64,000 nucleotides of DNA from the sequence record OZ035756.1; one strand, given 5' to 3'. The translations under genes were made by a program, and so were the position numbers. This DNA comes from Tequatrovirus LF73P3. The notes under the pieces were generated by a model. That model saw only the letters and a program-made list of their open reading frames with translations. It had not been told where the DNA came from and did no database searches. Below are positions 1 to 54,731 of the stretch, piece after piece (position 1 is the first letter of the stretch; every line of letters begins with the position of its first letter).

Positions 1-239
1 ACGAATAGTAGTATCATCATCAATCATCCAAATTCGTTGACCTGCATACATTTCAGTAATTGCTTTGCGAGTGCCAGCAATTCCATTAACATCATCGGGA
101 ATAGTTATAATTTTGGCTCTAGACCCGTAAGCATCATAATAAGCTTTTTCTTCATGTTTACGTACTACAATATGTGGTTCATAATCAGTCGGAAACATAT
201 CAAGGGCAGAAACTGCCCCTACACGTTGATAGCTTGGAA
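1..239 (-). CDS. Partial CDS (N-terminal ~79 aa; rest lies beyond the window start): GT-A type glycosyltransferase, not T4 beta-gt-like
   Basis: Reverse-strand translation from ATG at ~239 reads MIQFVIPSYQR...IWMIDDDTTIR with a DxD motif; sits where T4 has beta-gt, downstream of gene 42. Confidence 0.5.
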
Positions 240-251
240 TTACGAATTGAA

Positions 252-992
252 TCATTTCCACTCACCATTATAATCTTTTTTCGCAATATGAGTTTCACCA
301 GTTTTCCACCAATGGTCAACCAAATAAAAATGACGGGAATACACATGAAGGCTCCCGACATTCCATATAATGGAACCTGCTTTATACTGACGAGTTGAAT
401 CACCTGCATTCAAGTCAGATACTAATTTATCTAGTACGTATTTTTGCCATGCATAATCATTACGGAATCCGAAGACCACGTCATTTGAACGCATGCTTAC
501 TACTGCATTGACTTTCTTATCACGAATCAGGTATTGTACTGTATTCGTACACATGAAATCTGACATACCATCTTTATTGTAGTCAAATTGCATGGATGGA
601 CGAGTATAAATCATGATACCGCGTCGAGAATCAGGATTTTGACCAAGTTCAGCTAAACACATATCATACTGGGCATAGTTATCTTCTGACCAGATGGCCC
701 AACCATAATTCGAGTTAATTTCGCCTTTAGAAGATGCTACCTGTTGCCAAATCTTTGGTGTTTCACCCGGAATATCTTTAACAAACAAACTTTTAGATTT
801 ATACCATTCAAGTTCACGCTGAATGTATTCATCATTAAGAGCGCCAAAAATAAAAGGTTCATCTGCTACAAATGATGCACCAATAATTTCAATAGTTTTA
901 ACACCAGTTTTATCAATTACGAAATCTTTTTCCTTTAATGCAAGACCCAAATCAAGACGGATTTCTTCAACTGTCATATAATCGTTAATCAT
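252..992 (-). CDS. 42: dCMP hydroxymethylase gp42
   Basis: 246-aa ORF; sequence matches T4 gp42 as I recall it (MTVEEIRL...WNVGSLHVYSRHFY); position between the glycosyltransferase and imm. Confidence 0.93.
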   Translation of the reverse strand: MINDYMTVEEIRLDLGLALKEKDFVIDKTGVKTIEIIGASFVADEPFIFGALNDEYIQRELEWYKSKSLFVKDIPGETPKIWQQVASSKGEINSNYGWAIWSEDNYAQYDMCLAELGQNPDSRRGIMIYTRPSMQFDYNKDGMSDFMCTNTVQYLIRDKKVNAVVSMRSNDVVFGFRNDYAWQKYVLDKLVSDLNAGDSTRQYKAGSIIWNVGSLHVYSRHFYLVDHWWKTGETHIAKKDYNGEWK

Positions 993-1145
993 TTAAACCT
1001 CAATTGATGCATTCATATTTAACTTGTAACAGTAATAAACCCCAACCTATAATAAGTGTCGGAATCATAAGAGGAACTGTTACGCTATAGTATATACTTA
1101 TTATAATCATCAAGATTAAAAGCAATACTGCTAAAATTTTGCTTT

Positions 1146-1397
1146 TCATTCCTTCTCTCTGATGATAATTACTTGATTTTGCTGCACAGATTTTTTAGTT
1201 TCACCTGCAATTGACCAAATAAAGGTAATAAACCAACCAATAATTGACCAATTAAACAGTAAAGATGTGAAAAAGATTCCTACTGTCGATTTTGACCCAC
1301 GCATCAAGGCGATGAACCAAGGAAGCATGTATATAATAATAGCCAACACGCCTGAAACTAAAACCATAAAAATTGAACCTGCTACTAAAGTTTCCAT
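1146..1397 (-). CDS. imm: Small membrane protein, probable Imm (superinfection immunity)
   Basis: 83 aa with two hydrophobic helices; same size and position as T4 imm between 42 and 43. Confidence 0.7.
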   Translation of the reverse strand: METLVAGSIFMVLVSGVLAIIIYMLPWFIALMRGSKSTVGIFFTSLLFNWSIIGWFITFIWSIAGETKKSVQQNQVIIIREKE

Positions 1398-1404
1398 GTT
1401 TTCC

Positions 1405-1785
1405 TCACTTAGTCAAATTTTTTACGCATGAATTATAAGAATTCACTACATACTCCATTGGAGCATTTTTACCAGTACGCCATTGGTAATTATTAGCCCA
1501 ATTAGCCCAAAGTTCGGCGCAGTAGTTTTCAATTTTTTCTTCGCGTGTAATTACATCCGAATTACGATATGCTTGGGCAGATTCATCTGGACGAATAGCT
1601 TCATCAAAATTCGCCTGCATTTGTTCTACTGTCTGTTTTGGAGCTTCTTTATAACACTTAACATTAGGATTATAAAATTTGCTTGAACAATTTACAATTT
1701 TTCCTGCATCGGACTGATTTATTACTGGTCCTTGAGCTACACATCCAGTAAGACCCAATGCAATAACCAAAATAGCAATTTTCAT
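1405..1785 (-). CDS. Predicted lipoprotein (126 aa)
   Basis: N-terminal signal peptide with lipobox LTGC (MKIAILVIALGLTGC); immediately upstream of imm in the same operon. Confidence 0.6.
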   Translation of the reverse strand: MKIAILVIALGLTGCVAQGPVINQSDAGKIVNCSSKFYNPNVKCYKEAPKQTVEQMQANFDEAIRPDESAQAYRNSDVITREEKIENYCAELWANWANNYQWRTGKNAPMEYVVNSYNSCVKNLTK

Positions 1786-1795
1786 AATAATTTCC

Positions 1796-2050
1796 TCAAA
1801 TACAAGTAGTAATTACTCCAGTAGTGCTTATACAGGTATTACCTAATTGAACACCAAGCGTTCCATTAGTATTCATATGAAGATTATCATCAATTTTTGT
1901 TGATACTTTACCATTCATGTGAATAACAGTATTAGATTCAATCACATTCTGAGTGTCATTTTCAATATCAATAAATGGAACAGATGCTAATGCAACTAGA
2001 ACAGCTGCTAATGCAACTAAACACGCTGCTAAACAACCATAAACAATTTT
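1796..2050 (-). CDS. Small secreted/membrane protein (~84 aa)
   Basis: Track ORF 1796..2242 trimmed to internal Met (MKIVYGCLAACLVALAAVLVALA...) because the 5' extension overlaps an early promoter and gene 43; hydrophobic signal-like N-terminus. Confidence 0.45.
   Translation of the reverse strand, partial: KIVYGCLAACLVALAAVLVALASVPFIDIENDTQNVIESNTVIHMNGKVSTKIDDNLHMNTNGTLGVQLGNTCISTTGVITTCI
1983..2035. repeat. Short tandem repeat (gctaatgcaacta-like unit, ~2.5 copies) inside the signal-peptide coding region
   Basis: Direct reading: gctaatgcaactagaacagctgctaatgcaactaaacacgctgctaaacaacc; encodes the repeated AAVLVALA segment. Confidence 0.5.
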
Positions 2051-2085
2051 CATTTCATTCTCCAAATCCGTATCAGTTGATAGTT

Positions 2086-2120
2086 GTATAGTACCATGGA
2101 AGAACAGGGATGTAAACAGT
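2086..2120 (-). promoter_or_regulatory. T4-type early (sigma70) promoter
   Basis: Minus strand reads GTTTAC-18 nt-TACTAT with an A/T-rich upstream tract; same ~60-bp element recurs at >10 sites in the window. Confidence 0.6.
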
Positions 2121-2200: not shown

Positions 2201-2222
2201 AAAAAGGGACCCGGAGGTCCCT
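2201..2222 (-). terminator. Intrinsic terminator downstream of gene 43
   Basis: Minus strand: GGGACC-UCCG-GGUCCC hairpin followed by UUUUU. Confidence 0.7.
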
Positions 2223-2234
2223 AGATTTATTCTA

Positions 2235-4931
2235 TCAGCCAAACAGGAAGTCTAACGAAGCTTTTTCCTCATAGTCCATACCTGCCGATTCACACATGCC
2301 CGCAAGCGGTTTAACAAACGATTTTTGGAACAAAGTTGAGTAGTCAATCCAAGACAGTACGTCAGAACGAATTTCTTTTGGAAGTTCTGTGCCTGATGGC
2401 CAAGCAATGCACTTGTCACCAAATGGATTTCCTTCACGTAATGGAAGAACCATTACCTTATTTCCATCCAAAATTGGAGCTACACCTAAACCGCTAACAG
2501 CTCGACGATAAGTTAGCACACCACGAATATGGAACGGACATTTAAATCCTGGCCAACCTTTATCATCATATTTCGCTATATCGTTCGCAGTTTTTACTTC
2601 AGCAATAACTTTATAGTCAAGTTGACGATATTCTTTCTCAAAGTTCTTGTAGTATTCTTGGACAGACTCTTCACCTTCCTGAAGAATACGACGAATACTT
2701 TCTTCGAGAGCTTCTTGTACTGCTTTTGGTGTTGAGCTCTGCTGAGTTTCCATACCCATAATTTTTAGATGCGGTTCGGCAAATCGCTTATCTTCCATAT
2801 CATAAACGTTCAGAGCATAACGTTTTTTCGCTTTCCAAAATCCACCAACACCCTTTGAACCAAGCGGAGGGCAAGAAATAGCTTCACGGTCCATATGCAT
2901 CAGATGCTCGCGGTTATTCATATAATCACATAACTCACGATATGCAACATCAATCATAGGTTCCATCTTTTTCTTACCGAACTGATTCATGAATTCAACT
3001 AAATCATTTTGTTCTTTAAAGCGGTCAAGACCTACTTTTTCAATTACTTTATCTACACAAACATATACCGAATCAGTATCACCTGCTGCGATGAAATCTT
3101 CACCATTAGTTCCACATACTTTATTCAGATATTCATTAATTTTGCGAGCAATCCATTGAATACCGACTTGACCGAAAATTGTGATAGCAGTAGCATTTCG
3201 CAAATCATAGTAGCGGAAATGAATATTACCAAGAGCACCATAAAGACTGTTAATAAGAATTTTACGGTTCAGCTGATTTGTGTTAGCAAGTGTAGCAGCT
3301 TTTTCGCATTCTTCGATCAGACTATTAAGTACAGATTCAGTGTAATTCGATAATTCGTTTAAGAAATCATCACTGAACTTAACATATCGTTCAACTTCTG
3401 GTTTAGTTGAACAAGACCCTGCACCTTTCATAATAATCTTTTTAATAGCTTCGGCATTCATTTCTTCCGCGAACATTTTCTTTTTCCAATCTTTACGCTG
3501 GAAAAATACTTTAGCGATTTCCTTTGGAATGATACCTTCTTGGTGCTTATCATACATCCATCCATTCGGAGAGCAAGAATATTCATCACTTGGCTTAGGA
3601 GCTGTTCCTGCGATATATTCATGAATTGGATGAACTTTAAACTGCCCACGAATAGTCTCAGGACTAATGTTAACCTGACGAATAATGCTAGGATACAGAG
3701 ACGTCAAGTCAAAACTCATAATGTATCGACGAGCAATCGGTTTAGGTTCAAACACAAATGCACCTGGAAAACTCTGTTTAACGTGCGAACCTTGTTGAGG
3801 AATAACCTTATGTTCACCTTTCAGTGAGTTAAAAATAATAGCATCCCAAGTTTTAATAGGACTCATTACACCAGAAAAAGGCATTTTAGCGTAATAAGAC
3901 ATACTTAAAACTAGATCGATAAACCCACGAATTTTATCAATTGCTTGAACTGATTCTACGTCAATGATGTTATAACTAATGTATCGTTGATGATTAGTCT
4001 CACGAAGTTTATTAATAGGACCATCGTACGGCAATTTACCTTTTTTGGTTTCATGTTGAGCAACTGATTCCAAAGAGAACGATGGCAAATTAGTAAATGC
4101 GAATTTCTTGTACAAATCTAAATAATCAAGAATAGATACGCCATCAATAGAATAAATTTCTTTACTACCGTACATATTTTGAATTAGTTTAGATTTTACT
4201 CGACCGATTGGAGAGAAGCGTTTCATACTACGTTCACCGAGAACCATTTTAACACGATTCATGATATACGGAACGTCAAATCCCTCAATATTCCAACCGG
4301 TAAAAATAGCAGGTCGTTTCTGTTCCCAGAGATTAATATATTCCATGAGCATATCACGCTCATTATCAAATGGCATATAAATTACTCGGTCAAGAATTTC
4401 TTGAGGAACTTCATCACCACCTTCACAGTCAAGCTTAGCAGCTAACTTTGCGTCCCATTTTGATACTGAACCGTACATTGAATTCAACAAATCAAAGACG
4501 TAAAAACGATCGTCAATTGAATCATAATGAGTGATAGCATCAATTTCATATTCTGCTTTCATTGGGTCAGGAAATTTATCACCAGTAACCTCAATGTCAC
4601 AGTTAGCTACACGAACAAATTTTCGGTCATAAACAATTTCTGAACCATATGTATCACTGATATAAGCGAGTTTAAAATCGTTCATACCGAGAGCTTCGAG
4701 ACCAATGTCTTCCATTCGTTTCATCCAGTCTCGTGCATCTTTCATTGATGGAAATTTTTGAGGAGCACAATTTTTACCATAAATGTCTTTGTATTTTGAC
4801 TCTTCCTTACAATGCCTAAACATAGTCGGAAGATATTCTACTTCACGGGTACGTTCCTTTCCGTTTTCATCAATATAACGCTCAACAATATTATTTCCGA
4901 CTGTTTCGATAGAGATATAAAATTCTTTCAT
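2235..4931 (-). CDS. 43: DNA polymerase gp43 (family B)
   Basis: 898-aa ORF beginning MKEFYISIETVGNNIVERYIDENGKERTREVEYLPTMF, essentially the T4 gp43 sequence as I recall it; exonuclease and polymerase motifs present (FDIE, YGDTDS). Confidence 0.98.
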   Translation of the reverse strand: MKEFYISIETVGNNIVERYIDENGKERTREVEYLPTMFRHCKEESKYKDIYGKNCAPQKFPSMKDARDWMKRMEDIGLEALGMNDFKLAYISDTYGSEIVYDRKFVRVANCDIEVTGDKFPDPMKAEYEIDAITHYDSIDDRFYVFDLLNSMYGSVSKWDAKLAAKLDCEGGDEVPQEILDRVIYMPFDNERDMLMEYINLWEQKRPAIFTGWNIEGFDVPYIMNRVKMVLGERSMKRFSPIGRVKSKLIQNMYGSKEIYSIDGVSILDYLDLYKKFAFTNLPSFSLESVAQHETKKGKLPYDGPINKLRETNHQRYISYNIIDVESVQAIDKIRGFIDLVLSMSYYAKMPFSGVMSPIKTWDAIIFNSLKGEHKVIPQQGSHVKQSFPGAFVFEPKPIARRYIMSFDLTSLYPSIIRQVNISPETIRGQFKVHPIHEYIAGTAPKPSDEYSCSPNGWMYDKHQEGIIPKEIAKVFFQRKDWKKKMFAEEMNAEAIKKIIMKGAGSCSTKPEVERYVKFSDDFLNELSNYTESVLNSLIEECEKAATLANTNQLNRKILINSLYGALGNIHFRYYDLRNATAITIFGQVGIQWIARKINEYLNKVCGTNGEDFIAAGDTDSVYVCVDKVIEKVGLDRFKEQNDLVEFMNQFGKKKMEPMIDVAYRELCDYMNNREHLMHMDREAISCPPLGSKGVGGFWKAKKRYALNVYDMEDKRFAEPHLKIMGMETQQSSTPKAVQEALEESIRRILQEGEESVQEYYKNFEKEYRQLDYKVIAEVKTANDIAKYDDKGWPGFKCPFHIRGVLTYRRAVSGLGVAPILDGNKVMVLPLREGNPFGDKCIAWPSGTELPKEIRSDVLSWIDYSTLFQKSFVKPLAGMCESAGMDYEEKASLDFLFG

Positions 4932-4975
4932 AGATATTCCTTAGTTTATAGCCCGAGTTATTAGGCTCTTGATAT
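4932..4975 (-). promoter_or_regulatory. Candidate gp43 translational operator (hairpin plus RBS)
   Basis: Minus strand reads GAGCCUAAUAACUCGGGCUAUAAACUAAGGAAUAUCUAUG: hairpin immediately 5' of the Shine-Dalgarno; T4 gp43 is known to autoregulate via such an operator. Confidence 0.5.
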
Positions 4976-4989
4976 ATTATACTCCAAAT

Positions 4990-5009
4990 AAGGGGCCGAA
5001 GCCCCTTGC
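4990..5009 (-). terminator. GC hairpin with UUCG loop after regA
   Basis: Minus strand GGGGCUUCGGCCCC followed by U-rich tract. Confidence 0.55.
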
Positions 5010-5378
5010 TTAATTACCAATCGTATATTTTGGAACGAGTTTCCATTCATGTTTTTGTTTAAAAGAAATAACTCGGAAGTTATTAGTTAAATCTTTCATA
5101 AAAGTTCTTTGACCAGGAACGATTTCAATCAGTCCCCAATCTTCTAACAGCCACGCAATCGAATCACGACGAACTTCATCTTCTTCTGTCATTTCAACCT
5201 GACGGCCATCCATACGAAGCATTTCTTTAAAATGAACGATATAGTATAGTCCTTTTTTCTGAAGAATATGACAGGACTGATACAGAACTTTATCTTTATT
5301 ATTAGCAATTCCCATACGAGTCAAGGTTTCTTTTACTTTCAGAAAATCTTCAGGTTTTTTAAGAGTAATTTCAATCAT
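5010..5378 (-). CDS. regA: RegA translational repressor
   Basis: 122 aa; sequence matches T4 RegA as I recall it (MIEITLKKPEDFLKVKETL...); position directly upstream of 43. Confidence 0.93.
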   Translation of the reverse strand: MIEITLKKPEDFLKVKETLTRMGIANNKDKVLYQSCHILQKKGLYYIVHFKEMLRMDGRQVEMTEEDEVRRDSIAWLLEDWGLIEIVPGQRTFMKDLTNNFRVISFKQKHEWKLVPKYTIGN

Positions 5379-44251: not shown

Positions 44252-44527
44252 TTATTTCATATTATTGAAATATTCTTCTGCGATTTCGTCGTTATCGTGG
44301 TAAACTTTAGAAGACAGTTTAACATAACCTTCTGCCGTGAACATATTAATCACAACCTTTACAGTATACCACTGACCGTCTTCATTACCCATTACTGCGT
44401 AAGTTTCAAACATCGGATGATCAGGACCGATAACTTTAATATCATTCACTGTACGACCGAAATCTTCTGAAACACATTTCATAAAGAAGTTGAACAGTTC
44501 GCCGTAATTATCCATTTTATTCTCCAA
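44252..44527 (-). CDS. Hypothetical protein (91 aa)
   Basis: ORF directly downstream of early promoter at ~44570. Confidence 0.45.
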   Translation of the reverse strand: MENKMDNYGELFNFFMKCVSEDFGRTVNDIKVIGPDHPMFETYAVMGNEDGQWYTVKVVINMFTAEGYVKLSSKVYHDNDEIAEEYFNNMK

Positions 44528-44557: not shown

Positions 44558-44590
44558 TATAGTACCATGGAAGAACAGGGATGTAAACCA
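44558..44590 (-). promoter_or_regulatory. T4-type early promoter
   Basis: Minus strand GTTTAC-18 nt-TACTAT; near-identical to the element at ~2090. Confidence 0.6.
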
Positions 44591-52426: not shown

Positions 52427-53017
52427 ATGCTCTTTACATTTTTTGATCCGATTGAATATGCGGCCAAAACGGTGAATAAAAACGCGCCGACTATTCCTAT
52501 GACAGATATTTTTAGAAACTATAAAGACTATTTCAAACGTGCTCTTGCGGGATACCGCTTACGTACTTATTGTATTAAAGGTTCACCACGCCCGGAAGAA
52601 TTAGCAAATGCTATATATGGAAATCCGCAGTTGTATTGGGTTTTATTGATGTGTAATGATAATTATGATCCGTATTATGGATGGATTACTTCGCAAGAAG
52701 CTGCTTATCAAGCATCTATACAAAAATACAAAAACGTAGGTGGAGACCAAATAGTATATCATGTGAATGAGAACGGTGAAAAATTTTATAATTTAATATC
52801 ATACGATGATAATCCATATGTTTGGTATGACAAAGGCGATAAAGCTAGAAAATATCCTCAATATGAAGGAGCACTTGCTGCGGTCGATACGTATGAAGCT
52901 GCTGTTCTTGAAAATGAAAAACTTCGTCAAATAAAAATAATAGCAAAATCAGACATCAATTCATTTATGAACGACCTTATACGTATAATGGAGAAATCTT
53001 ATGGAAATGATAAGTAA
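52427..53017 (+). CDS. 53: Baseplate wedge protein gp53
   Basis: 196 aa; size and synteny as T4 gp53. Confidence 0.8.
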   Translation: MLFTFFDPIEYAAKTVNKNAPTIPMTDIFRNYKDYFKRALAGYRLRTYCIKGSPRPEELANAIYGNPQLYWVLLMCNDNYDPYYGWITSQEAAYQASIQKYKNVGGDQIVYHVNENGEKFYNLISYDDNPYVWYDKGDKARKYPQYEGALAAVDTYEAAVLENEKLRQIKIIAKSDINSFMNDLIRIMEKSYGNDK

Positions 53018-54731
53018 TAACCTTAATTGGTTTGTTGGTGTTGTTGAAGATAGAATGGACCCATTAAAATTAGGTCGTGTTCGTGTTCGTGTAGTTGGTC
53101 TGCATCCACCTCAAAGAGCACAAGGCGACGTAATGGGTATTCCAACTGATAAATTACCATGGATGTCAGTTATTCAACCTATAACTTCTGCAGCAATGTC
53201 TGGAATTGGAGGCTCCGTTACTGGTCCGGTAGAAGGAACTAGAGTTTATGGTCATTTTTTAGACAAATGGAAAACTAACGGAATTGTCCTTGGCACTTAT
53301 GGTGGAATAGTTCGCGAAAAACCGAATAGACTTGAAGGATTTTCTGACCCGACTGGACAGTATCCTAGACGTCTAGGAAATGATACTAACGTATTAAACC
53401 AAGGCGGAGAAGTAGGATATGATTCGTCTTCTAATATTATCCAAGATAGTAATCTAGACACCGCAATAAATCCCGATGATAGACCGTTATCAGAAATTCC
53501 AACCGATGATAATCCAAATATGTCAATGGCTGAAATGCTTCGCCGTGATGAAGGATTAAGACTAAAAGTCTATTGGGATACAGAAGGATATCCGACAATT
53601 GGTATTGGTCATCTTATCATGAAGCAGCCAGTTCGTGATATGACCCAAATTAATAAAGTTTTATCAAAACAAGTTGGTCGTGAAATTACCGGAAATCCAG
53701 GTTCTATTACAATGGAAGAAGCGGTAACTTTATTTGAACGCGATTTGGCTGATATGCAACGTGACATTAAATCACATTCTAAAGTTGGCCCAGTTTGGCA
53801 AGCAGTTAATCGTTCCCGTCAAATGGCATTAGAAAATATGGCATTTCAGATGGGTGTTGGCGGTGTAGCTAAATTTAACACAATGTTAACAGCTATGTTA
53901 GCCGGAGATTGGGAAAAGGCATATAAAGCTGGTCGTGATTCATTGTGGTATCAACAAACAAAAGGCCGTGCATCCCGTGTTACCATGATTATTCTTACAG
54001 GGAATTTGGAATCATATGGTATTGAAGTGAAAACACCAGCTAGGTCTTTGTCAGCAATGGCTGCTACTGTAGCAAAGTCTTCTGATCCAGCTGACCCTCC
54101 TATTCCGAATGATTCGAGAATTTTATTTAAAGAACCTGTTTCTTCATATAAAGGTGAATATCCGTATGTTCACACAATGGAAACTGAAAGCGGTCATATT
54201 CAGGAATTTGATGATACCCCTGGGCAAGAACGATACAGATTAGTTCATCCGACTGGAACATATGAGGAAGTATCACCCTCAGGAAGAAGAACAAGAAAAA
54301 CTGTTGATAATTTGTATGATATAACAAATGCTGACGGTAATTTTTTGGTAGCCGGCGATAAAAAGACTAACGTCGGTGGATCAGAAATTTACTACAACAT
54401 GGATAATCGTCTTCACCAAATAGATGGAAGCAACACAATATTTGTCCGTGGCGATGAAACTAAGACAGTTGAAGGTAATGGAACTATCCTAGTTAAAGGT
54501 AATGTTACTATTGTAGTCGAAGGTAATGCTGACATTACAGTTAAAGGAGATGCTACCACTTTAGTTGAAGGAAATCAGACTAATACAGTAAATGGAAATC
54601 TTTCTTGGAAAGTTGCTGGGACAGTTGATTGGGACGTTGGTGGTGATTGGACGGAAAAAATGGCATCTATGAGTTCTATTTCATCTGGTCAATACACAAT
54701 TGATGGTAGCCGTATAGACGTAGGTTTATAA
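53001..54731 (+). CDS. 5: Baseplate hub / cell-puncturing protein gp5 with lysozyme domain
   Basis: N-terminus MEMISNNLNWFVGVVED...; internal lysozyme domain paralogous to e (MAEMLRRDEGLRLKVYWDTEGYPTIGIGHL); C-terminal VxGxxxxx beta-helix repeats. Confidence 0.95.
   Translation: MEMISNNLNWFVGVVEDRMDPLKLGRVRVRVVGLHPPQRAQGDVMGIPTDKLPWMSVIQPITSAAMSGIGGSVTGPVEGTRVYGHFLDKWKTNGIVLGTYGGIVREKPNRLEGFSDPTGQYPRRLGNDTNVLNQGGEVGYDSSSNIIQDSNLDTAINPDDRPLSEIPTDDNPNMSMAEMLRRDEGLRLKVYWDTEGYPTIGIGHLIMKQPVRDMTQINKVLSKQVGREITGNPGSITMEEAVTLFERDLADMQRDIKSHSKVGPVWQAVNRSRQMALENMAFQMGVGGVAKFNTMLTAMLAGDWEKAYKAGRDSLWYQQTKGRASRVTMIILTGNLESYGIEVKTPARSLSAMAATVAKSSDPADPPIPNDSRILFKEPVSSYKGEYPYVHTMETESGHIQEFDDTPGQERYRLVHPTGTYEEVSPSGRRTRKTVDNLYDITNADGNFLVAGDKKTNVGGSEIYYNMDNRLHQIDGSNTIFVRGDETKTVEGNGTILVKGNVTIVVEGNADITVKGDATTLVEGNQTNTVNGNLSWKVAGTVDWDVGGDWTEKMASMSSISSGQYTIDGSRIDVGL

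What the first reader, a model, noticed from the sequence alone, without database searches (positions are those of the whole stretch)
1405..2120. Early envelope module upstream of imm: lipoprotein plus a secreted peptide with an in-frame tandem repeat
A single early promoter (~2100) drives a small signal-peptide protein (1796..2050) containing a ~2.5-copy tandem DNA repeat, then a lipoprotein with lipobox LTGC (1405..1785), then imm. Phage lipoproteins next to immunity genes often block the phage's own receptor, so this looks like a three-gene superinfection-exclusion module. The tandem repeat could allow length variation.
Basis: partly seen in the sequence, partly recalled or inferred. Interest (0 to 1): 0.48.

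Follow-up and report, generated by a model that had tools for sequence, protein, structure and literature searches.

The report
T-even imm operon with lipoprotein partner
This is the ordinary superinfection-immunity (imm) locus of a T4-like phage, whose already catalogued but uncharacterised lipoprotein gene imm.1 lies next to imm in every T4-like genus examined, suggesting it works with Imm rather than masking a receptor.

Summary
OrfA carries an in-frame 21-bp, 2.6-copy repeat. Next come a lipobox lipoprotein (1405..1785) and imm (1146..1397).

The lipoprotein is T4 Imm.1 (Pfam DUF5481, phrog_1754), 97-98% identical in T4, T2 and T6. Its function is unknown.

- **Receptor masking is unlikely.** Imm.1 is nearly invariant among phages that use different receptors.
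- **The link to imm is strong.** A phrog_1754 lipoprotein flanks imm in 24 of 24 T4-like loci, covering eight genera with three different gene orders.
- **orfA is an optional cassette.** It is absent in T4 and T6, replaced by an unrelated ORF in T2, and lies 34 kb from imm in Dhakavirus.
- **The repeat does vary.** It duplicates seven residues inside orfA's hydrophobic N-terminus (78-aa versus 85-aa alleles). That segment looks more like a membrane anchor than a cleaved signal peptide.

A fourth gene belongs to the operon: a 49-codon membrane ORF (1000..1149) overlapping the imm stop. It is intact but unannotated in the T4 reference.

The genes are known and the mechanism is inferred, so interest is modest.

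The parts
2205..2222 (-). Intrinsic terminator after gene 43 (DNA polymerase, 2235..4931). It marks the upstream boundary of the unit.
   Evidence: 7-bp stem with 5 GC pairs, followed by TTTTTCAT. Conserved in T4, T2 and T6.
2088..2117 (-). T4-type early (sigma-70) promoter: -35 GTTTAC at 2117..2112 and extended -10 TGGTACTAT at 2096..2088, with an A/T-rich tract upstream.
   Evidence: exact match to GTTTAC-N15-TGGTANNAT, with 14 hits in the window, all on the minus strand, against 0.09 expected; conserved in T4 and T6, where it directly precedes imm.1; the same site is annotated as an early promoter in phage SA20RB.
1796..2053 (-). orfA, 85 aa (phrog_4189, unknown function). It has an N-terminal 26-residue apolar segment, a low-confidence linker, and a roughly 45-residue beta-rich C-terminal domain with a Cys pair (C74, C84). 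It is an optional cassette.
   Evidence: ATG at 2053, GGAG at 2063..2060. (phrog_4189, E = 2.3e-29). (AlphaFold2, pLDDT 70). (dN/dS 0.15-0.7). (absent in T4 and T6, replaced in T2).
1978..2032 (-). In-frame 21-bp tandem repeat, 2.6 copies, encoding LVALAAV / LVALASV inside the orfA hydrophobic segment.
   Evidence: score 87, 91% match; one-copy (78 aa) and two-copy (85 aa) alleles occur in two sequence backgrounds, and one-copy alleles have TTAGCA at both ends of the unit.
1405..1785 (-). imm.1, 126 aa: the T4 Imm.1 / DUF5481 / phrog_1754 lipoprotein. Lipobox LTGC with Cys15 and Val at +2. The model has a low-confidence stretch over residues 16-50 and a confident helical hairpin over residues 81-125 containing the conserved C89 and C120.
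   Evidence: PF17578, E = 4.7e-71.. (lipobox and C89/C120 conservation). (AlphaFold2). (dN/dS 0.01-0.06).
1146..1397 (-). imm, 83 aa: superinfection immunity inner-membrane protein.
   Evidence: PF14373, E = 7.8e-16. (phrog_1039). (100% identical copies in other Tequatrovirus phages).
1000..1149 (-). orfD, 49 aa (phrog_3610): a small protein with two hydrophobic segments. Its start overlaps the imm stop (ATGA). It is part of the operon and is unannotated in the T4 reference.
   Evidence: intact in T4 and T6, found with the same ATGA overlap after imm in Gaprivervirus and Dhakavirus-like loci, conserved motif P.MIPTLI.GW, pN/pS about 0.2-0.3.
252..992 (-). Gene 42 (dCMP hydroxymethylase), the downstream neighbour. 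Context only.
   Evidence: Annotations.

Best explanation
This is the imm locus of a Tequatrovirus (T4-like) phage.

Shown by sequence:
- After the gene 43 terminator, a T4-type early promoter heads four envelope genes in a row: orfA, imm.1, imm and orfD.
- The genes are packed so tightly that each stop codon overlaps or abuts the next ribosome-binding site or start codon (TGAGGAAA twice, ATGA once).
- Imm.1 has a canonical lipoprotein signal (lipobox LTGC, Cys15).
- An Imm.1-family (phrog_1754) lipoprotein gene lies beside imm in every T4-like genus examined.

Inferred:
- Imm.1 is exported, lipid-modified and, because residue +2 is Val rather than Asp, sorted to the outer membrane facing the periplasm.
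- Its mature part is a flexible tether of about 35 residues followed by a helical hairpin. C89 and C120 sit in the two helices and could form a disulfide.
- Imm.1 is a working partner of the inner-membrane protein Imm. It may reach across the periplasm to position or complete the block that keeps the DNA of a superinfecting T-even phage from crossing the inner membrane. OrfD may be a third membrane subunit.
- It does not mask a receptor.
- OrfA is a separate, exchangeable early accessory gene. It encodes an N-terminally anchored inner-membrane protein with a small periplasmic beta domain. A 21-bp duplication lengthens its anchor from 19 to 26 apolar residues, which should favour membrane retention over release.
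For: - Family assignments.
- Promoter.
- Gene packing.
- Lipobox conservation down to 31-36% identity, with one family member (P0015) carrying a signal-peptidase-I type signal instead. That pattern is consistent with a periplasmic location.
- Strong purifying selection on imm.1 (dN/dS 0.01-0.06).
- Synteny with imm: RB69 has imm.1-imm-sp at a different genome position. Gelderlandvirus and Jiaodavirus have 43-lipoprotein-imm-42. Dhakavirus and Gaprivervirus have imm-(orfD)-lipoprotein.
- 24 of 24 T4-like IMG/VR loci have a same-strand lipobox ORF within 400 nt of imm, against 5 of 56 non-T4-like Imm-domain loci. Only 2 lipobox-like ORFs occur in the whole 64-kb window.
- All these lipoproteins fall in phrog_1754. 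Pairwise phmmer on mature sequences reaches 3.7e-7. The third fold hit among viral models is the Moonvirus lipoprotein.
- Against receptor masking: Imm.1 is 97-98% identical in T4, T2 and T6.
- orfA as an optional cassette.
- Repeat alleles.
- Anchor energetics.
Against: - No experiment bears on Imm.1 function.
- Knock-down of imm.1 in T4 gave no fitness effect in a single-phage laboratory screen, where the gene is listed as function unknown (PMC11879866, supplementary files 8 and 15). That fits an exclusion role but does not demonstrate one.
- From my own knowledge (Lu and Henning 1989), plasmid-borne imm alone confers immunity, so Imm.1 cannot be strictly required.
- Imm-domain proteins outside Tevenvirinae usually lack a neighbouring lipoprotein.
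- The 24 loci are not phylogenetically independent. They represent roughly seven lineages.
- The Imm.1 model is weak (pLDDT 65, built from 6 sequences), and the 'tether' is simply its low-confidence region.
- Fold searches gave nothing informative.
- Synteny could reflect shared early expression of envelope proteins rather than a shared machine.
- OrfA topology rests on a crude hydrophobicity sum using scale values recalled from memory.
Confidence: 0.5

Rival explanations
1. One reading: Imm.1 is an Llp/Cor-like exclusion lipoprotein that binds and masks the phage's own outer-membrane receptor, preventing adsorption or triggering of superinfecting phage.
For: Imm.1 is an early-expressed lipoprotein, predicted to go to the outer membrane, and lies next to an exclusion gene. 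Phage lipoproteins Llp (T5) and Cor are known to block FhuA (PMC9586334, listed; also mentioned in PMC12373910).
Against: - Imm.1 is 97-98% identical in T4, T2 and T6, which use different receptors (established knowledge: OmpC/LPS, FadL/OmpF, Tsx). A receptor mask should co-vary with receptor specificity.
- The gene lies between the DNA polymerase and dCMP hydroxymethylase genes, or next to sp in RB69, and not beside receptor-binding genes.
- The Pfam, PHROG and PADLOC scans and the PDB fold search returned no known exclusion lipoprotein.
- By established knowledge, T-even-infected cells still adsorb secondary phage. Lysis inhibition and superinfection breakdown both depend on that.
Confidence: 0.08
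2. Imm.1 (and orfD) are early envelope proteins with a job unrelated to Imm. Candidates include stabilising the envelope against lysis from without, taking part in lysis-inhibition signalling, or altering host outer-membrane or peptidoglycan functions. On this view adjacency to imm reflects only shared early expression.
For: - Strong purifying selection with no laboratory fitness effect fits any conditionally useful envelope function.
- Imm domains occur without a lipoprotein outside Tevenvirinae.
- imm alone is reported to give immunity (own knowledge).
- The review PMC6832632 notes that the action of Imm is itself poorly understood and may touch lysis inhibition.
Against: The pairing survives relocation of the locus (RB69) and inversion of gene order (lipoprotein upstream in five genera, downstream in three). 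That is hard to explain by co-expression alone.
Confidence: 0.3
3. orfA, imm.1 and imm form one three-part exclusion machine, and the repeat in orfA tunes its function.
For: orfA shares the promoter and is translationally coupled to imm.1 in this window. Its C-terminal domain carries a Cys pair, consistent with a periplasmic location.
Against: - orfA is missing from T4 and T6, where the promoter and leader join imm.1 directly.
- An unrelated 83-aa ORF without a signal sequence fills the slot in T2.
- orfA is found in 325 phage records against 656 with Imm.1.
- In Dhakavirus its homologue lies 34 kb from imm, among unrelated hypothetical genes.
- It evolves five to thirty times faster than imm.1 by dN/dS.
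Confidence: 0.1

Closest known systems
T4 imm.1 (NP_049661; Pfam DUF5481 / PF17578; phrog_1754)
   Same: The window protein is an orthologue: 98% identical, with the same position upstream of imm and the same promoter.
   Different: Nothing substantive. T4 Imm.1 has 125 residues against 126 here. Its function is unknown in T4 too, and the RefSeq product name 'iduronate sulfatase' has no support here.
T4 Imm / Sp superinfection exclusion
   Same: imm itself is present (PF14373). In RB69, imm.1, imm and sp are contiguous. All are early envelope proteins.
   Different: Imm.1 and orfD are not part of the described two-protein picture (Imm blocks DNA entry; Sp inhibits the gp5 lysozyme, PMC7677548). 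Any role for them is inferred here from synteny only.
T5 Llp and lambdoid Cor (receptor-blocking exclusion lipoproteins)
   Same: Small phage-encoded lipoproteins, expressed after infection or from a prophage, that act in the envelope against superinfection.
   Different: No search here returned them. Imm.1 is not linked to a receptor-binding gene and is invariant across phages with different receptors. Imm.1 therefore probably does not work like Llp or Cor.
Outer-membrane lipoproteins with long disordered linkers that reach inner-membrane partners (for example LpoA/LpoB; comparison from memory)
   Same: Predicted architecture: lipid anchor, an unstructured segment of about 35 residues, and a small folded domain.
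   Different: This is an analogy of layout only. There is no sequence or fold similarity, and the 'linker' is merely the low-confidence part of a weak model.
Promoter-cassette modular shuffling in T4-type genomes (Arbiol et al. 2010; recalled, not read here)
   Same: The orfA slot lies directly behind an early promoter plus leader that recurs nearly identically at 44559..44588. The slot is empty, filled with orfA, or filled with another ORF in different phages.
   Different: I did not test whether the recurrent cassette has the defining stem-loop. The indel boundaries here are the short repeat ATGAAAAT(T/C)G at the two start codons.

Membership tests
DUF5481 / T4 Imm.1 (PF17578, phrog_1754) | Sequence match above the curated threshold | tested here: met
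   236 bits against a cut-off of 27, E = 4.7e-71, covering the full profile (positions 1-103); phrog_1754, E = 7.1e-43.
DUF5481 / T4 Imm.1 (PF17578, phrog_1754) | Position next to imm | tested here: met
   directly upstream of imm in T4, T2, T6, RB69 and this window.
Bacterial lipoprotein (Lgt/LspA substrate) | Basic n-region, uncharged h-region, and lipobox [LVI][ASTVI][GAS]C with the Cys at about position 15-35 | tested here: met
   MK-IAILVIALG-LTGC, Cys15. It passes a rule modelled from memory on PROSITE PS51257; only 2 ORFs in the 64 kb pass. The Pfam LPAM_1 match is below threshold (E = 0.44). No LipoP or SignalP was available.
Bacterial lipoprotein (Lgt/LspA substrate) | Lipobox Cys conserved among homologues | tested here: met
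   conserved in Tequatro-, Mosig-, Gelderland-, Jiaoda-, Dhaka-, Gapriver- and Moonvirus proteins. One metagenomic member (P0015) has an AHA|S signal-peptidase-I site instead.
Bacterial lipoprotein (Lgt/LspA substrate) | Actual lipid modification and outer-membrane sorting | not testable with these tools
   Outer-membrane sorting is inferred from a non-Asp residue at +2 (V, G, A, Q or S) using the E. coli +2 rule (established knowledge).
Llp/Cor-type receptor-blocking exclusion lipoproteins | Sequence or fold relationship to Llp or Cor | tested here: not met
Llp/Cor-type receptor-blocking exclusion lipoproteins | Specificity that tracks the phage's receptor, and linkage to the receptor-binding gene | tested here: not met
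   97-98% identity among T4, T2 and T6; the gene lies between genes 43 and 42.
Llp/Cor-type receptor-blocking exclusion lipoproteins | Blocks adsorption or receptor function when expressed | not testable with these tools
   Needs adsorption and plating assays.
Imm superinfection immunity protein (PF14373) | Pfam match and two hydrophobic segments | tested here: met
   (58 bits against a cut-off of 27.9). (hydropathy). (100% identical to Imm of other Tequatrovirus phages).
Cleavable Sec signal peptide (claimed for orfA) | Short h-region (about 7-15 residues) followed by an A-x-A cleavage site | tested here: inconclusive
   An ALA|S motif is present, but the apolar run is 26 residues here and 19 in one-copy alleles. 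The rough insertion energy is -2.6 kcal/mol, against +3 to +4 for the Imm.1 and Sp signal peptides. This favours a signal anchor. No dedicated predictor was available.
In-frame variable tandem repeat (contingency-type locus) | Unit length a multiple of three, and copy number varying among close relatives | tested here: met
   the 21-bp unit is present in one or two copies. The two-copy state occurs in two different sequence backgrounds.
In-frame variable tandem repeat (contingency-type locus) | Many copies with frequent slippage (hypervariable array) | tested here: not met
   Only one-copy and two-copy alleles were seen in 11 protein clusters and 10 loci. It is a duplication polymorphism and not a long array.

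The most novel reading that the evidence does not exclude
Imm.1-family lipoproteins, Imm and the unannotated 49-residue OrfD form a conserved envelope-spanning complex in Tevenvirinae. The complex plugs or mis-routes the genome-injection path of superinfecting T-even phages. The lipoprotein would be the overlooked component that explains how an 83-residue inner-membrane protein can stop DNA entry.
Probability: 0.3. Interest if true: 0.65.

Novelty: new member of a known kind. Interest (0 to 1): 0.38.

Why it matters
How T4 Imm stops incoming DNA has been unclear since the gene was identified. The 2019 review PMC6832632 still calls its action less easily understood than that of Sp. If the neighbouring lipoprotein and the small unannotated membrane ORF are partners of Imm, the question becomes testable with three small deletions and co-expression assays in T4 itself. 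The negative result matters as well: the receptor-mask idea, natural by analogy with T5 Llp, does not fit a protein that is invariant across T2, T4 and T6. The orfA slot is a compact example of promoter-proximal cassette exchange and of a duplication that changes the length of a membrane anchor. Otherwise the locus is a standard part of T-even genomes.

Tried and rejected
- **Literature.** Searches for 'DUF5481', 'imm.1' with several partner terms, and spackle/lipoprotein/superinfection exclusion found no paper on Imm.1 function. 'imm.1' mostly matched journal abbreviations. The original imm papers (PMC250924, PMC237878) are not held.
- **Other libraries.** PADLOC, NCBIfam and Rfam gave nothing meaningful.
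- **Profile-profile comparison.** hhalign of Imm.1 against the longer lipoproteins gave 97% probability, but only over the signal peptide plus about 20 residues. With signal peptides removed it was not significant. Homology instead rests on intermediate sequences and on the shared phrog_1754 assignment.
- **First homologue search for Imm.1.** The word-indexed search returned only 3 clusters. The exhaustive representative search showed the family really is small, with 6 clusters at 50% identity.
- **OrfA as a lipoprotein.** Rejected for this window. LAAC places the Cys at residue 11, which is too early. Only the HY01/ZN18 allele gains a well-placed LAAC at Cys18.
- **Weak motif hits.** The promoter-like site inside imm.1 (1697..1669) and the terminator-like hairpin inside the repeat (2019..2002) are at chance level and were disregarded.

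Full report
**Setting.** The window comes from a T4-like phage (Tequatrovirus). The 898-aa ORF at 2235..4931 on the minus strand is the gene 43 DNA polymerase, and 252..992 is gene 42. The 1.35 kb between them matches 536 phage records at 90-98% identity. Everything discussed here is on the minus strand.

**Checking the observation.**
- An intrinsic terminator (2205..2222) follows gene 43.
- At 2088..2117 lies GTTTAC-N15-TGGTACTAT, an exact match to a T4 early-promoter pattern. That pattern occurs 14 times in the window, always on the minus strand, against 0.09 expected from shuffles.
- The same promoter and leader are conserved in T4, T2 and T6, and the site is annotated as an early promoter in phage SA20RB.
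- The small ORF starts at the ATG at 2053..2051, eight bases after GGAG (2063..2060). Its span is therefore 1796..2053 (85 aa).
- Tandem Repeats Finder reports a 21-bp unit, 2.6 copies, 91% match, at 1978..2032. The only other array in the 64 kb is the known beta-helix repeat of gp5.
- The repeat is in frame and encodes LVALAAV / LVALASV inside the N-terminal hydrophobic stretch.
- ORF 1405..1785 begins MKIAILVIALGLTGC, a canonical lipobox with Cys15.
- ORF 1146..1397 is Imm (PF14373, E = 7.8e-16).

**What the genes are.** The lipoprotein is T4 Imm.1. It matches Pfam DUF5481 at E = 4.7e-71 and phrog_1754, and is 98% identical to T4 and T6 Imm.1 and 97% identical to T2 Imm.1.
- The family is small. 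An exhaustive search of 1.8 billion representative proteins found six clusters, and tblastn found it in 656 phage records.
- A lipobox cysteine is kept in RB69 (36% identity) and in three of the four divergent metagenomic members. The fourth, P0015, has a signal-peptidase-I type signal (AHA|S) instead. Both forms are consistent with a periplasmic location.
- Two cysteines, C89 and C120, are invariant across the family.
- AlphaFold2 gave a weak model (pLDDT 65). Residues 1-50 are low confidence and residues 81-125 form a confident helical hairpin that places C89 and C120 in the two helices.
- Residue +2 is never Asp. By the E. coli +2 rule this suggests outer-membrane sorting; that step is an inference.
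- dN/dS within Tequatrovirus is 0.01-0.06, so the protein is under strong constraint.
- In a T4 CRISPRi-ART screen, imm.1 knock-down had no fitness effect and the gene is listed as function unknown (PMC11879866, supplementary files 8 and 15).
- I found no paper on its function.

**The link between imm.1 and imm.** This is the strongest new evidence.
- In RB69 (Mosigvirus) imm is at a different place in the genome, and imm.1 has moved with it: 61.4-imm.1-imm-sp.
- In Gelderlandvirus (STML-198) and Jiaodavirus (JIPh_Kp122, KPV15) a 147-148 aa lipobox protein lies between gene 43 and imm.
- In Dhakavirus (dhabil) and Gaprivervirus (TH44) a 166-167 aa lipobox protein lies just downstream of imm.
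- Moonvirus has an upstream lipoprotein, whose homologues are also found in Karamvirus.
- All four of these longer proteins match phrog_1754, the PHROG of Imm.1, with a best E-value of 2e-52.
- With signal peptides removed, phmmer links them to DUF5481 through metagenomic intermediates, with P0018 against TH44 reaching 3.7e-7.
- They share a post-Cys motif, G-[DE]-v-V-p-A-s-E-v-G-K, and the two C-terminal cysteines.
- The third hit in the viral fold library is the Moonvirus lipoprotein.
- In a systematic scan, 24 of 24 T4-like IMG/VR loci containing imm had a same-strand lipobox ORF within 400 nt. The figure was 5 of 56 for Imm-domain loci in other phages. The same rule finds only two ORFs in the whole 64-kb window.
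- The 24 loci are not independent, but they cover about seven lineages and three gene orders.

**Against receptor masking.** T4, T2 and T6 use different receptors (established knowledge), yet their Imm.1 proteins are 97-98% identical. The gene lies among replication genes and not next to receptor-binding genes. No library or structure search returned a known exclusion lipoprotein such as Llp or Cor. T-even-infected cells are known to keep adsorbing secondary phage. Imm.1 therefore more likely acts at a step common to all T-even phages, in the periplasm or at the inner membrane together with Imm.

**orfA.** It belongs to phrog_4189, of unknown function, and is confined to T4-like phages.
- It is optional. 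In T4 and T6 the same promoter and leader run straight into imm.1. The indel is bounded by ATGAAAAT(T/C)G, which begins both ORFs.
- In T2 the slot holds an unrelated 83-aa ORF with no hydrophobic N-terminus.
- orfA is found in 325 phage records against 656 for Imm.1.
- In Dhakavirus its homologue lies 34 kb from imm.
- Its dN/dS is 0.15-0.7.
- The model shows an N-terminal helix, a poorly predicted linker and a six-strand beta domain of about 45 residues with a conserved Cys pair. No fold match was found.
- The apolar run is 26 residues here and 19 in one-copy alleles. A rough insertion-energy sum gives -2.6 kcal/mol here, -0.2 to -1.4 for one-copy alleles, and +3 to +4 for the Imm.1 and Sp signal peptides (scale values recalled from memory). 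I therefore favour a signal anchor over a cleaved signal peptide, without proof.

**The repeat.**
- One-copy alleles (78 aa) carry TTAGCA at both ends of the 21-bp unit. Two-copy alleles (85 aa) are duplications in that register.
- Two-copy alleles occur in two different sequence backgrounds, the IDIEND and VSVEND lineages.
- One 89-aa allele has an extra IDID.
- No allele has more than two copies, so this is a recurrent duplication polymorphism and not a hypervariable array.
- In the HY01/ZN18 allele the second copy keeps its cysteine and creates a well-placed LAAC lipobox at Cys18. This is probably why a UniRef cluster is named 'Lipoprotein'. In this window that residue is Val.

**A fourth gene.**
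- ORF 1000..1149 (49 aa, phrog_3610) starts inside the imm stop codon (ATGA).
- It is intact in T4 and T6 but not annotated in the T4 reference, where the span appears as a 153-nt gap.
- The same overlap and a conserved P.MIPTLI.GW motif are found after imm in Gaprivervirus and Dhakavirus-like loci.
- pN/pS is about 0.2-0.3.
- It overlaps the site that SA20RB annotates as the gene 42 middle promoter.

**Verdict.** The locus is the ordinary T-even imm operon, and its genes are already catalogued. The receptor-mask mechanism and the three-gene module are not supported. What is worth keeping is the inference that an Imm.1-family lipoprotein, and perhaps OrfD, is a conserved partner of Imm. This can be tested directly in T4.

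Noticed in passing
window 1000..1149 (-): A 49-codon ORF with two hydrophobic segments overlaps the imm stop codon (ATGA). It is intact in T4 and T6 but unannotated in the T4 reference NC_000866. The same overlap occurs after imm in Gaprivervirus and Dhakavirus-like loci. It also overlaps the site annotated in SA20RB as the gene 42 middle promoter.
   Followed up: partly
window 2088..2117 and 44559..44588 (-): Two identical 30-nt early promoters. Near-identity extends over about 100 nt, through the A/T tract, the leader and the ribosome-binding site up to the ATG. The second copy precedes a 91-aa ORF ending at 44252. Such repeated promoter-leader cassettes could mediate the gene-cassette exchange seen at the orfA slot.
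   Followed up: partly
whole window, - strand: GTTTAC-N15-TGGTANNAT (allowing one mismatch) occurs 14 times, all on the minus strand, against 0.09 expected by chance. This gives a ready map of early promoters in the window.
   Followed up: no
L007 737..988 (T2); L004 5015..5197 (T4); L006 820..1000 (T6): The slot between the early promoter and imm.1 is polymorphic. It is empty in T4 and T6, holds orfA in about 320 Tequatrovirus genomes, and holds an unrelated 83-aa ORF (no Pfam or NCBIfam hit) in T2.
   Followed up: partly
L005 1195..2230 (RB69): In RB69, imm.1, imm and sp (spackle) are contiguous. This brings the two known exclusion genes and the lipoprotein together in one cluster.
   Followed up: partly
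L009 / L021 (Yersinia phage ZN18); protein P0001: In this orfA allele the 21-bp duplication keeps a cysteine and creates a canonical LAAC lipobox at Cys18. A UniRef cluster is named 'Lipoprotein'. The duplication may switch the protein between a helix anchor and a lipid anchor.
   Followed up: no
protein P0015 (metagenomic DUF5481 member): This family member lacks the lipobox cysteine and has a signal-peptidase-I type site (AHA|S) instead. It is probably a soluble periplasmic version of Imm.1.
   Followed up: no
L004 (T4 RefSeq NC_000866.4) 4637..5014 and 3480..4220: RefSeq names imm.1 'iduronate sulfatase' and gene 42 'thymidylate synthase'. The first name has no support in any search here. 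The second is a family-level name for dCMP hydroxymethylase.
   Followed up: no
window 54465..54599 (+), within ORF 53001..54731: The only other tandem-repeat array in the window (24/48-bp units) lies in a 576-aa ORF that I recognise from its sequence (not searched here) as gp5, the baseplate hub/tail lysozyme; the array would be its known C-terminal beta-helix repeat. gp5 is the target of Spackle.
   Followed up: partly
window 1..273 (-): The gene downstream of gene 42 begins MIQFVIPSYQRVG and is not the T4 beta-glucosyltransferase. By position it may be the beta-glucosyl-HMC-alpha-glucosyltransferase of T2/T6-like phages. This was not tested.
   Followed up: no
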